Translations under genes and position numbers: made by a program
Source of the DNA: Carcharhinus amblyrhynchos
Lineage: Eukaryota
DNA: 64,000 nt
Direction of reading: 5' to 3'
Assembly: GCA_965287045.1 (NCBI GenBank)
Contig: OZ336878.1
Location: 58,094,001-58,158,000 of the forward strand
Shown: positions 48,951 to 52,918 of the stretch, piece after piece
Position numbering within the stretch: the first letter of the stretch is position 1
Layout of the letters: each line of letters starts with the position of its first letter
Notes under the pieces: model-generated
Databases searched by the model: none
The model's input: only the letters and a program-made list of their open reading frames with translations
Told to the model about the DNA's origin: nothing

Positions 48951-51085
48951 AAGCCCCATGTTCATACTGAGGACAACTTCCATCATGCTTTGTGTCACTT
49001 CATGCTAAATGGGACAGAACCAGCAATGATCCAACAGCTGAAGTGGACATCTGTCAGGCACTGTGATCATTATTATCAGCAGCAGAATTGTACTTAATGA
49101 CATTCTGAAACCTTGTGGCCTGGCAGGTGTCTCATTCTACCATTACCAGTATGCTAGGGGACCAACCCTGTATTATGAGTGTACATCCTGAGTGTATGAG
49201 AGCATACCAGGAGTATTACTAAGAATACTGAAATAATACATCGATCATATTCATGCTAAAGAGCAGAGGCAGCATGCTACAGAGAAAGCTAAGTATTCAC
49301 ACAACTCATGGATTAGATCAAGGCTCCTCAGTCATGTAACATCCAGTTGTAACTGGTGGCAGACAATAAGACAAATAACTAGAGCAGGATGCTCCTCCAA
49401 CATCCCAATCCTAATGATGCCACAGCCAGTATGTTAACGCAAATGTTAAGGCCAAAACATTTGTCACCACTTTCAGCCTGAAGTGCCGGGTAGAAGATCC
49501 ATCTCAGCCTCCTCCCAAGATCCCCAGCATCATGGATGCTAATCTTCAGCAAATTTGATTAACTCCATTTGGTAGCAGGAAACAGTGGATACAAGAAAAG
49601 GCTATAGGCCCTGATAATATGCCAGCTGTAGTACCTAAGACTTGAGCTCCAGAAGTGGGCACTCTTCTAAGCTAAGCTGTTTCAATACAGCTATCTGGCA
49701 ATTTGGGAAATTTCCCATATATGCGTTGTCTACAAAAAGCAAAACAAATCCAATCTGGCTGATCACTGACCCATCAATCTACCCCCAATCATCAGCAAAA
49801 TGATGGAAGTTGCCATCAACTGTGCTATCAAGCAGCACTGATACAACTATAACTTGTTCGCTTATGCTGTTTGTTTTCTGCAAGAGCCACTTGCCTCCAT
49901 CTTAATTCTGAGAGCCTTGATCCAAAAATGGACACAATAGCTGGATTCCAGAGGTGATATCAGAGTGACTACCCCGGACCTCTCAGCAACCTTTAACCAT
50001 CAAGAAACTCAAGAAAACTTTACATCAATGGAAATAAGGAAAATCTCTCCACTGGTTGGAGGCATAACTACTACAAATTAAATAATTGTAGTTGTTGGAG
50101 GCCAATTATCTCAGAACCAGAATATTGCTGCACAAGTTTCCCACGGTAGTGCCCTGGGCCCAACCATCTTCAGCTGCTTCGTTGATGACCATCCCTCCAC
50201 CATTAAGTTTACTGATGATTGCACAATGTTAAGCACCATTTGTGACACCTTGGATACTGAAGTAGTCCATGCCCGTTTGCAGCAAGACTTGGACAACATT
50301 CAGGCTTGGGCTGATGAGTGGCAAGTAACATTCACACCACTCAAGTGCCAGGCAAAGATCATTACCAATGACAGTAAACTATCTATCCCCCCTCGACATT
50401 CAGTGGCATTGCTTTTACTGAATATCCCACTGTCAACATCCTGGGGGTTACTATTGACCAGGAACTGAACTGACCCAGCCATATGAACACTATGGCTAAA
50501 GAGAAGGTTTAAGGCGAGGAATTCTGTGGAGAGTAGCCCATCTCCTGACTCCACAAAACCTATCCGTAGTCTATAATCACAAATCAGGAATGTGATGGAA
50601 CACTCTCTCTTTGCCTGAAAGGGTATAGTTCCAACAACATTCGACACCATCCAAAGTAAAGAAGCCCACTTGATTGGCACCCTATCCACAACCTTAAACT
50701 TTGCATTCCTCCACCACCAATGCACAGTAACTGCAGTGTGAACCCTTCATAAGGTGTACTGCTACAACTTGGCAAGACTTCAACAGCACCTACCAAACTT
50801 GCAACTTCTCTTCTTCGAAGGATAAGGACATCAGATGCATGAGAACACTACTACCTTCCAATTCCCTTCCATTTCACACAATATTCTGACTGGGAACTAT
50901 ATTATTGTTCTTCATTTTTGTTGGATCAAAATCTTTGAACTCCCTCTGTAATGGTACTACGGGTATGCCTATATCATATGGACTGCAGCAGTTATAGAAA
51001 GTGGATCACCAACACCCTCTGAAGGGCAATTGGGGAAGAGCAATAACTTGCCAATTCCATCCACATCCCATGAATGAACAAATAA
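48951..51085 (+). mobile_element. RTE-X-like LINE, RT to 3' end
   Basis: LQQDLDNIQAWADEWQVTFTPLKCQ and GLLLTRN/GVTIDQ motifs; 3' end gggcaattggggaagagcaataa..catcccatgaatgaacaaataaaa. Confidence 0.8.
50183..51010 (+). repeat. Left arm of a long inverted repeat
   Basis: Reverse complement of 52103-52918; for example 50701-50760 matches the right arm at 60/60. Confidence 0.95.
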
Positions 51086-51158
51086 AATTCTGTAGTCTTC
51101 AACAGGTTGATTCATGTACTTCATATCTCTTACTTGTCTATTATGTTTATGTTGACAG

Positions 51159-51255
51159 CTGGTGCAAAGATATAGTTGAGGCATTGGTTAAGAAACGGAC
51201 TGCAATGCTCATTGAAGATCCTGACAATGAACTGAAGGAACTTGAAAAACTTAAG
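51159..51255 (+). CDS. AXDND1: AXDND1-like internal coding exon (97 nt, phase 2/0)
   Basis: Acceptor gtttatgttgacag, donor AAG|gtaatt. Translates (G)WCKDIVEALVKKRTAMLIEDPDNELKELEKLK; compare recalled human CCKGMVTAMA...EDLYEVDKLK. Confidence 0.9.
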
Positions 51256-51477
51256 GTAATTTTCTCTATTTCAGAAGTAGGTGACAGCAATCTTTGCCAA
51301 ACACGGCAGCACACTTTATGGAATTAATTTATGGTATCTGCATAATCTTTTCAGTATTTTGAATGCCTGGAGCATGTTTCTTTTCTCTGATGGAAAGTTG
51401 TTCAATTAACAGTTATCACGGTTATGAGGTAGTATTTCATATATCATCACTTTGAATTCTTTGTTTGGATTTACCAG

Positions 51478-51621
51478 GTGGAAAGCACTGAGTGGATAAA
51501 TATCTGTGAGCTGCTGCTTTCCGAAATTAAGCAACAACCAGTCCAATTGTTGTCATCCAGAGATGAAGCTATCCAATCACAAATCAATCTGACCCGTGAC
51601 CTATGCGCTGCCTGCTTGCGG
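51478..51621 (+). CDS. AXDND1: AXDND1-like internal coding exon (144 nt, phase 0/0)
   Basis: Acceptor ttgtttggatttaccag, donor CGG|gtaagg. Translates VESTEWINICELLLSEIKQQPVQLLSSRDEAIQSQINLTRDLCAACLR; compare recalled human KECYEWINTCSCLLSNIKGRKITLL. Confidence 0.9.
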
Positions 51622-52102
51622 GTAAGGATAATTGTAATGGATAATTCTTGAATGTTGAGCATATTTTCCCTCCAGCTGTTTCTCATCTTCTGTGCAAAGT
51701 GATAAAGAGCTGGATATTATTCCATAGTGCAATTCTGTCACCCTATTCTTCAATTTTAGATTGTCTGCAATGTACTTGATCTTGGTAGGAAGGAAGTGTA
51801 ATTCAGTTGGGCAAAACTTGTAATCGTCCACCATCTGCAAATGCAACTTCCTAACAGGGAACTCCAATTTTCTATGTTGATTTCAATGTCTTTCTCTTTA
51901 GTGCCTATCCAGTGTTCTACGTTATTTCAAGTGGCTAGCAGAAGAGCCTGTATCTTTCCAGCTTTTACTTTTCTATTTGGAATGGGAGTAATACTACAAT
52001 TTATTCCATATCCCTAGTAGCCTTGGAAAGATGGTGGGGGGACTTCTCATTGAACTGTTGTCGTCAGTATGCTAATAGTTTTCCCTTAAAAATGTTAGCT
52101 AG

Positions 52103-52918
52103 GGTGATCCACTTTCTATAACTGCTGCAGTCCATATGATATAGGCATACCTATAGTACCATTACAGAGGGAGTTCAAAGATTTTGATCCAACGTAAATG
52201 AAGAACAATAATATAGTTACCAGTCAGAATATTGTGTGAAATGGAAGGGAATTGGAAGATATTGGTGTTCTCAAGCATCTGATGTCCTTATCCTTCAAAG
52301 AAGAGAAGTTGCAGGTTTGGTAGGTGCTGTTGAAGTCTTGCTGAGTTGTAGCAGTACACCTTATGAAGGGTTCACACTGCAGTTACTGTGCATTGGTGGT
52401 GGAGGAATGCAAAGTTTAAGGTTGTGGATAGGTGCCAATCAAGTGGGCTTCTTTACTTTGGATGGTGTCGAATGTTGCTGGAACTATACTCTTTCAGGCA
52501 AAGGGAGAGTGTTCCATCACATTCCTGATTTGTGATTATAGACTACGGACAGGTTTTGTGGAGTCAGGAGATGGGTTACTCTCCATAGAATTCCTAGCCT
52601 TTAACCTTCTCTTATAGCCACAGCGTTCAAATGGCTGGGTCAGTTCAGTTCCTGGTCAATAGTAACTCCCAGGATGTTGACAGTGGGGTATTCAGTAAAA
52701 GCAATGCCATTGAATGTCAGGGGGAGATAGATTTGGTAATGATCTTTGCCTAGCACTTGAGTGGTATGAATGTTACTTGCCAGTCATCAGCCCAAGCCTG
52801 AATGTTGTCCAAGTCTTGCTGCAAATGGGCATGAACCACTTCAGTATTCAAGGTGTTGTAAATGGTGCTTAACGTTGTGCAATCATCAATAAACTTAATG
52901 GTGGAGGGATGGTCATCA
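52103..52918 (-). repeat. Right arm of a long inverted repeat, sitting inside an older - strand RTE-X-like fragment (~52000-53160)
   Basis: Track ORFs 50584..50796(-) and 52236..52535(+) share VGAVEVL..CSSTPYEGFTLQLLCIGGGGMQSLRLWIG. Confidence 0.95.

What the first reader, a model, noticed from the sequence alone, without database searches (positions are those of the whole stretch)
50183..52918. ~820-bp locally generated inverted duplication bracketing two coding exons (circRNA / exon-skipping architecture)
Seen: 50183-51010 and 52103-52918 are reverse complements with long perfect stretches and scattered mismatches. They enclose a 1.09-kb loop holding exons 51159-51255 and 51478-51621, at 148 nt from the acceptor and 481 nt from the donor. 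Both arms share private deletions relative to the family copy at ~7530-8030: both lack gtcagaagtggggat, and both lack the aagaagct segment. They are therefore a copy of one another, not independent LINE insertions. Established: inverted intronic repeats flanking exons promote back-splicing, exon skipping and ADAR editing. Inference: a 241-nt circRNA (donor 51621 to acceptor 51159) is predicted. Skipping both exons would join a phase-2 donor to a phase-0 acceptor, causing a frameshift and likely NMD.
Basis: partly seen in the sequence, partly recalled or inferred. Interest (0 to 1): 0.7.

Follow-up and report, generated by a model that had tools for sequence, protein, structure and literature searches.

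The report
Inverted repair copy around AXDND1 exons
In a shark's AXDND1 gene (needed for sperm formation in mice), 816 bases of a dead jumping gene in one intron sit copied backwards inside another dead element two exons downstream; this is likely an ordinary DNA-repair scar, and although the RNA is predicted to fold around the two exons, RNA contigs from related sharks show them spliced in normally.

Summary
The arms 50183-51010 and 52103-52918 are 93% identical and share 166 derived bases and 7 deletions against 28 family copies. They enclose two real exons of shark AXDND1.

New here is the origin. The left arm lies inside a longer sense LINE that keeps its 3' tail. The right arm has no tail and no target-site duplication. 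It interrupts an older antisense LINE whose flanks rejoin with 14 bases missing (21 of 28 copies). That fits a repair-mediated duplication (Pace 2009).

It is not an assembly artefact: 5 of 5 other DNA runs laid carry it, including one 4.7% diverged in the loop. The arms show no selection for RNA pairing. RNA contigs from three relatives show linear splicing; contigs cannot exclude a rare circle. In a 1-Mb genome sample, 2 inverted pairs were comparable in strength and 2 others were local inverted duplications. Weak hints suggest arm-to-arm conversion.

A circRNA or frameshifting skip remains a plausible, unshown by-product. This scan noted the same scar type before in other shark genes (ARSK, bbs4, TBC1D9). 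Verdict: a known kind, low interest.

The parts
48962..51090 (+). Old sense-strand LINE fragment (endonuclease + RT non-LTR retrotransposon; the label CR1-like is recalled, not tested) with its own 3' tail; holds the donor arm
   Evidence: Family copies align from about 48962 to about 51090-51100. tblastn matches the RT region of ORFs in L102/L103, which carry RVT_1 and Exo_endo_phos.
50183..51010 (+). Left arm = donor, the original sequence
   Evidence: Family homology continues on both sides of the arm; 15 arm-specific derived bases.
51159..51255 (+). AXDND1 coding exon, 97 nt (phase 2 in, phase 0 out)
   Evidence: tblastn 100% to P0001 aa 818-851; RNA contigs X18 and X20 carry the upstream exon's end as a loose end here.
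51478..51621 (+). AXDND1 coding exon, 144 nt (phase 0/0)
   Evidence: 94% to Mustelus AXDND1; joint 51255>51478 in X18; the downstream exon's start is the loose end in X18 and X20.
51971..52102 (-). 3' piece of the older antisense LINE (target element, inner flank)
   Evidence: Aligns to the donor element's tail 50944-51078; score 76 vs shuffled 52.6 +/- 4.4, 0 of 500 reach it.
52103..52918 (-). Right arm = acceptor, an 816-nt inverted copy lacking the LINE 3' tail, inserted at a site missing about 12-14 nt
   Evidence: no direct repeat longer than 1 nt at the junctions; 24 arm-specific derived bases.
52919..53158 (-). 5' piece of the older antisense LINE (target element, outer flank)
   Evidence: Aligns to the donor tail 50672-50929; score 137 vs shuffled 82.9 +/- 6.6, 0 of 500 reach it.
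35138..35331 (+). Upstream AXDND1 exon, 15.8 kb away; phase-2 donor after 35331 (start is the tblastn edge)
59506..59610 (+). Downstream AXDND1 exon, 7.9 kb away; phase-0 acceptor (donor at 59610 inferred from the GT motif)

Best explanation
The right arm is an 816-nt inverted copy of LINE sequence from the upstream intron of AXDND1 that interrupts an older antisense LINE, and it likely arose as a germline repair-mediated duplication (SDSA or template-switch type). Inferred steps: a break in the old antisense element lost about 12-14 nt. One end invaded the related LINE copy 1-2 kb upstream, out of register, copied 816 nt and rejoined, possibly over a 2-nt CC microhomology at the inner end. 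The copy became fixed before several related sharks split and has since drifted to about 5% substitution, with no sign of selection for RNA pairing and perhaps occasional arm-to-arm conversion. The pre-mRNA is predicted to form a long duplex around two exons. Minor back-splicing, skipping with NMD, or A-to-I editing would be tolerated by-products (I put a detectable circle in testis at about 0.35), while linear inclusion is the form seen.
For: Shown. (1) 166 shared derived bases and 7 shared deletions vs 28 family copies; the deletion-spanning pattern has 2 hits genome-wide. (2) Donor polarity: family homology runs through both ends of the left arm, including the 3' tail, and the right arm stops about 75 nt short of that tail. 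(3) The right arm's flanks are collinear pieces of one antisense element. The gap is 14 nt in 21 of 28 family copies, 15-17 in 3 and 3 in 1; 3 alignments were off-register. (4) No target-site duplication and no A-rich tail at the acceptor. (5) The donor-acceptor gap is 1092 nt; Pace et al. report a peak near 1,200 bp, deletions of 1-15 nt and microhomology of 2-9 nt. (6) The outer junction is bridged in 4 of 4 runs, and the X4 bubble edges 52152, 52219 and 52259 coincide with the window's arm differences. The inner junction is bridged by 35 letters in X14, whose contig also holds the opposite-strand inner end. (7) Drift-like pattern: left vs right derived 15:24 (p=0.20), G-U-keeping vs pair-breaking transitions 19:12 (p=0.28), no gradient along the arm (p=0.46), arm divergence 4.9% vs at least 5.1% intronic divergence to organism E (p=0.91). 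(8) Linear inclusion in X18, X20 and X21.
Against: No empty (pre-insertion) site was seen: all 5 DNA runs laid carry the insertion, so the target deletion is inferred from family copies. The microhomology is only 2 nt and rests on family letters (C in 25 and 18 of 28 copies), and none is visible at the outer junction. At 816 nt the copy exceeds Pace's human proximal maximum of 619 bp. The neutrality tests have little power (31-40 sites). Hints of homogenisation do not fit pure drift. (a) Both X6 branches differ from the window's right arm at 7-8 of 145 sites (P=0.001 at 1.1% divergence, 0.075 at 2.5%). (b) X14 seems to share no 31-mer between arms over about 235 nt (P=0.012 at 4.9%). (c) The window's arms have a 134-nt run without substitution (P=0.024; it contains a 1-nt indel). 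(d) At 52899 the window's right arm matches the left arm while 4 of 4 other runs differ, a CpG site. These tests were picked after seeing the data.
Confidence: 0.8

Rival explanations
1. Functional splicing switch. The duplex is kept because it routes part of AXDND1 pre-mRNA into a 241-nt circRNA or a frameshifted NMD transcript during spermiogenesis.
For: It is by far the strongest inverted pair in the window and tightly brackets these two exons (bit score 1242; next 636). 793 arm-arm pairs are predicted. It is retained in 5 of 5 other DNA runs. Reverse complementary matches promote both back-splicing and skipping (PMC8330042 abstract; PMC13019944 abstract). AXDND1 is testis-enriched and needed for fertility in mice (PMC8580973 abstract).
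Against: Only linear joints appear in 3 of 3 guessed-RNA runs (weak, since contigs drop rare forms). There is no excess of pair-preserving changes. Right-arm pieces are not more conserved than the loop in X4: 4 differences in 455 nt vs 4 in 1122. Small circles and very stable hairpins can disfavour circularization (PMC4201285). The longest ATG ORF on the circle is 71 aa. Comparable pairs occur at about 2 per Mb.
Confidence: 0.07
2. Gene conversion between two pre-existing antiparallel LINE copies made them alike, without a new insertion.
For: An older antisense copy of the same family does lie at the acceptor site, and there are weak signs of later homogenisation.
Against: The copy is out of register. 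In family coordinates it spans 50183-51010, but it sits between target positions 50929 and 50944, so family sequence 50672-51010 is present twice on the right side. In-register conversion would replace sequence, not add 816 nt.
Confidence: 0.05
3. Independent retrotransposition of a sister LINE copy, or re-mobilisation of the donor, happened to land antisense nearby.
For: Young family copies do form inverted pairs by chance in this genome, e.g. L037 (1467 nt, 90%) and L130 (678 nt, 94%).
Against: The acceptor lacks the 3' tail that target-primed reverse transcription needs (established knowledge) and has no target-site duplication. The donor is about 29% diverged from family copies. The private pattern occurs only in the two arms.
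Confidence: 0.03
4. Assembly artefact (fold-back chimera).
Against: The arms differ at 40 sites plus indels. An independent sample X4 and organisms A, B and C bridge the outer junction, and X4, X5 and X7 give the 1152-nt loop contig expected between inverted repeats. Organism E carries both inner ends.
Confidence: 0.01

Closest known systems
Repair-mediated duplications (RDs), Pace, Sen, Batzer and Feschotte 2009, PMC2671141 (read parts 1-3 of 8 plus keyword passages)
   Same: A copy of at least 50 bp inserted inside an interrupted transposable element; a single donor within 5 kb (peak about 1.2 kb); short target deletion and microhomology; no poly(A) tail; neutral decay. One of their examples (ACSBG2) is inverted within the same gene.
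   Different: 816 nt vs their human proximal maximum of 619 bp. The passages read list no shark (fish: zebrafish only). Donor and target here belong to the same LINE family, which may have helped the strand invasion. No empty orthologous site was available here.
Intronic complementary sequences flanking circularizing or skipped exons: inverted Alu pairs at ZKSCAN1/HIPK3/EPHB4 (PMC4201285: passages and section 12), C. elegans RCMs (PMC8330042: abstract), Alu duplex skipping (PMC13019944: abstract)
   Same: Complementary arms in the two flanking introns close to the splice sites, long flanking introns (15.8 and 7.9 kb), two enclosed exons.
   Different: The arms come from a DNA-level local copy, not two independent insertions, and are longer and better matched (93%) than usual Alu pairs (recalled). 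No circle, skip or edit is shown here, and the 241-nt circle is small.

Membership tests
Repair-mediated duplication (Pace 2009) | Insertion of at least 50 bp interrupts a TE whose two fragments are collinear within 30 bp of family coordinates | tested here: met
   14-nt gap in 21 of 28 copies; flank matches exceed 500 of 500 shuffles.
Repair-mediated duplication (Pace 2009) | Inserted sequence has exactly one other (donor) copy in the genome | tested here: met
   Pattern has 2 hits genome-wide; other matches are 77% or less among 40 of 12,811 candidates scored.
Repair-mediated duplication (Pace 2009) | Donor within 5 kb and more than 50 bp away | tested here: met
   1092 nt between the arms.
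Repair-mediated duplication (Pace 2009) | No poly(A/T) tail or TPRT-type target-site duplication | tested here: met
   The acceptor ends about 75 nt before the LINE tail; the longest direct match at the junctions is 1 nt.
Repair-mediated duplication (Pace 2009) | Breakpoint hallmarks: deletion, microhomology or filler | tested here: met
   Deletion of about 12-14 nt inferred from family copies; possible 2-nt microhomology; no filler seen.
Repair-mediated duplication (Pace 2009) | Empty orthologous site in an outgroup | tested here: inconclusive
   All 5 DNA runs laid carry the insertion; no more distant DNA run was laid.
circRNA-promoting intronic complementary sequence | Complementary arms in both flanking introns, able to pair without hiding the splice sites | tested here: met
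   793 arm-arm pairs in the predicted fold of 50100-53000; the splice sites lie outside the arms.
circRNA-promoting intronic complementary sequence | Back-splice junction in RNA | tested here: inconclusive
   No backward joint in 3 of 3 guessed-RNA contig sets from relatives; contigs drop rare forms and tissue is unknown.
circRNA-promoting intronic complementary sequence | Circle or skip depends on the arms (deletion abolishes it) | not testable with these tools
   Needs a minigene.
circRNA-promoting intronic complementary sequence | A-to-I editing in the duplex | not testable with these tools
   No raw RNA reads with matched DNA were offered.

The most novel reading that the evidence does not exclude
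A single repair accident created an unusually long (816-nt) inverted copy around two frame-critical exons of a sperm-formation gene in a shark lineage. Arm-to-arm gene conversion has kept the duplex strong, and it now diverts part of AXDND1 transcripts into a testis circRNA or NMD-bound skip product: a lineage-specific, repair-born regulator of spermiogenesis.
Probability: 0.07. Interest if true: 0.55.

Novelty: new member of a known kind. Interest (0 to 1): 0.2.

Why it matters
As a neutral scar it is a clean, large example of repair-mediated duplication in a shark, with donor, target and deletion all readable. It shows that very strong inverted pairs around exons can persist across species with the exons still included in mRNA. 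If a circle or skip product were shown, it would link a DNA-repair mechanism to the birth of circRNA or exon-skipping elements. One search (templated insertion + inverted + circular RNA + intron) returned 2 papers, neither on this link by its listing; that is not proof that it is absent from print. The pair also makes the two exons invertible by recombination, which would knock out a gene needed for male fertility in mice (inference; not observed).

Tried and rejected
No RNA holder listed on record for the loop; this is no evidence either way. PDB sequence search with the 48-aa exon found nothing. Pfam scan of donor frames failed on stop codons, so open ORFs of related elements were scanned instead. 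The stretches laid held one arm or the loop only, so double-exon skipping and loop orientation could not be read. Selection for G-U-preserving changes: not significant (19:12). Identity gradient along the arm: none. Paper searches (7 in all): the listings showed no AXDND1 circRNA or shark circRNA study bearing on this; listings and abstract starts only, subscription journals are largely missing, and no supplements were read (Pace's Table S1 might hold longer or inverted cases). No substitution rate was taken from any paper, so no age in years is given. Structure prediction and complex prediction were not run, as they do not bear on the question.
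Full report
Observation. The two arms exist at the stated coordinates: 829 aligned columns, 93.2% identity and 14 gap bases, with 40 substitutions in 815 paired columns. It is the best inverted match in the window (bit score 1242, next 636). 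The loop is 1092 nt, and the distances of 148 and 481 nt to the splice sites are right. The window lies on a 112-Mb contig of a 2.92-Gb genome.

Gene. The 144-nt exon matches AXDND1 of eight shark proteins, best Mustelus asterias at 94%. tblastn with P0001 places eight exon-sized matches on the + strand from about 10.1 to 59.6 kb; P0006 and P0007 add a ninth near 63.1 kb. Guessed-RNA contigs of relatives confirm the boundaries. X18 joins 51255 to 51478 over GT..AG. X18 and X20 carry the upstream exon's end before 51159 and the downstream exon's start after 51621. X21 holds the first exon's end before the second. Skipping both exons (241 nt) gives a stop 49 nt into the next exon; skipping only the second keeps the frame. 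AXDND1 is testis-enriched and needed for spermiogenesis in mice (PMC8580973, abstract only).

Local copy. Against the 28 best other family copies fetched, both arms share 166 derived bases and 7 deletions; 581 columns agree with the family majority. A pattern across the first deletion occurs at exactly two places in the genome. The arms are 71% identical to family copies on average, and those copies are 82% identical to each other.

Direction and mechanism. Family homology continues on both sides of the left arm, from about 48962 to its own 3' tail near 51090. The element is an endonuclease-plus-RT LINE ('CR1-like' is my recalled label). The right arm stops about 75 nt short of that tail and has no target-site duplication, which argues against retrotransposition. 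Its flanks, 51971-52102 and 52919-53158, are pieces of an older antisense copy of the same family; each exceeds 500 of 500 shuffles. They abut in family coordinates with a 14-nt gap in 21 of 28 copies (15-17 nt in 3, 3 nt in 1, and 3 off-register alignments). The insert is out of register with the target, so in-place conversion cannot explain it. The last two letters of the missing stretch are mostly CC in the family (25 and 18 of 28), as are the last two of the copy: a possible 2-nt microhomology. This matches the repair-mediated duplications of Pace et al. (PMC2671141, parts 1-3 of 8 and passages read): inserts inside interrupted TEs, donor within 5 kb with a peak near 1,200 bp, deletions of 1-15 nt, microhomology of 2-9 nt, no poly(A). 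Their human proximal maximum was 619 bp; this one is 816. The strand-invasion steps are inferred.

Real and shared. In one search, 4 of 4 runs (X4 and organisms A, B, C) bridge the outer junction at 52918 with 59-123 letters inside the arm. Three of four X4 bubble edges coincide with the window's arm differences. Loop differences from the window are 4, 11 and 22 in 1122 nt for X4, X5 and X7. X14 (organism E, 49 differences in about 1040 nt) crosses the inner junction by 35 letters and carries the opposite-strand inner end; its record lengths imply about 265 and 268 nt of the two arms (the lengths are my inference). No empty site was found.

Selection. Left and right arms gained 15 and 24 derived bases (p=0.20). 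Transitions that leave a G-U pair number 19 against 12 that break the pair (p=0.28). Differences are even along the arm (p=0.46), and arm divergence (4.9%) equals the intronic divergence to E (at least 5.1%; p=0.91). These tests are weak. Against pure drift, four post-hoc hints point to arm-to-arm conversion. Both X6 branches differ from the window's right arm at 7-8 of 145 sites (P=0.001 at 1.1% divergence, 0.075 at 2.5%). E seems to share no 31-mer between its arms over about 235 nt (P=0.012 at 4.9%). The window has a 134-nt substitution-free run (P=0.024, containing one indel). At 52899 the window's right arm equals the left arm while 4 of 4 other runs differ (a CpG site, so recurrence is possible). 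They rest on contig tables, not on orthologous sequences, and remain unexplained.

RNA consequences. The predicted fold of 50100-53000 pairs 793 arm bases; the duplex energy is -1482 kcal/mol, and the splice sites lie outside the arms. Such pairs can promote back-splicing and skipping (PMC8330042 abstract; PMC13019944 abstract; PMC7038940 passages). But not all repeats do so, stronger hairpins sometimes inhibit, and ZKSCAN1 exons of 400 nt or less circularized poorly, while 336- and 360-nt exons of other genes did circularize (PMC4201285, passages and section 12). No backward joint appeared in 3 of 3 guessed-RNA runs. Contigs drop rare variants, tissue is unknown, and for organisms F and G the presence of the arms was not tested, so this shows only that linear inclusion occurs.

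Background. I took 100 stretches of 10 kb at round-number positions on 24 large contigs. They held 19 inverted pairs of at least 100 nt and 85% identity, in 11 of 100 stretches. Two were at least 600 nt and 90% (L037, L130; repeat-family copies). Two had no long match elsewhere in the sample and look like local inverted duplications: L101, 405 nt at 89%, and L085, 223 nt at 85%. That is 2 per Mb (95% interval 0.24-7.2), which suggests hundreds to thousands genome-wide. This case is longer and better matched than those two, and it happens to enclose exons.

Earlier notes of this scan describe the same kind of scar in other cartilaginous-fish genes. They are unchecked AI notes, seen after my reading and the Pace paper were in hand, and are not counted as support.

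Verdict. Observation confirmed; origin explained as a repair-mediated duplication (0.8); circRNA or skipping is a plausible unshown by-product, and a function is unlikely (0.07). New member of a known kind; interest 0.2.

Noticed in passing
window 17755-17948 and 21279-21479: Direct pair, 201 columns, 89.6% identical, 3.3 kb apart in one AXDND1 intron, with no long match in the 1-Mb sample: probably a second local repair-type copy, in direct orientation.
   Followed up: partly
window 29396-29611 and 42407-42617: Inverted pair, 216 nt, 86.6%, bracketing the exon at 35138-35331. Each arm has 39-40 matches up to 89% in the sample, so these are ordinary repeat-family copies.
   Followed up: yes
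window 16456-16502: 47-nt near-perfect palindrome in an intron.
   Followed up: no
window 33062-33271: Two tandem copies of about 99 nt, 89% identical.
   Followed up: no
L101:3520-4941 (G000:C9:10.0 Mb) and L085:1275-1874 (G000:C3:100.0 Mb): Local inverted duplications: 405 nt at 89%, spanning repeat plus unique DNA, and 223 nt at 85%, mostly unique DNA. Junctions not analysed.
   Followed up: partly
L130:7338-8872 (G000:C12:30.0 Mb): 678-nt inverted pair at 93.7%, only 187 nt apart, made of a repeat with 93% matches elsewhere.
   Followed up: no
window 52899; runs X6 and X14: Hints that the arms have exchanged sequence after the duplication; unresolved without orthologous assemblies.
   Followed up: partly
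window 59506-59610: The AXDND1 exon after the loop looks more diverged from Mustelus than the upstream exons (the 47% figure includes intron flank), suggesting a fast-evolving C-terminal region.
   Followed up: no
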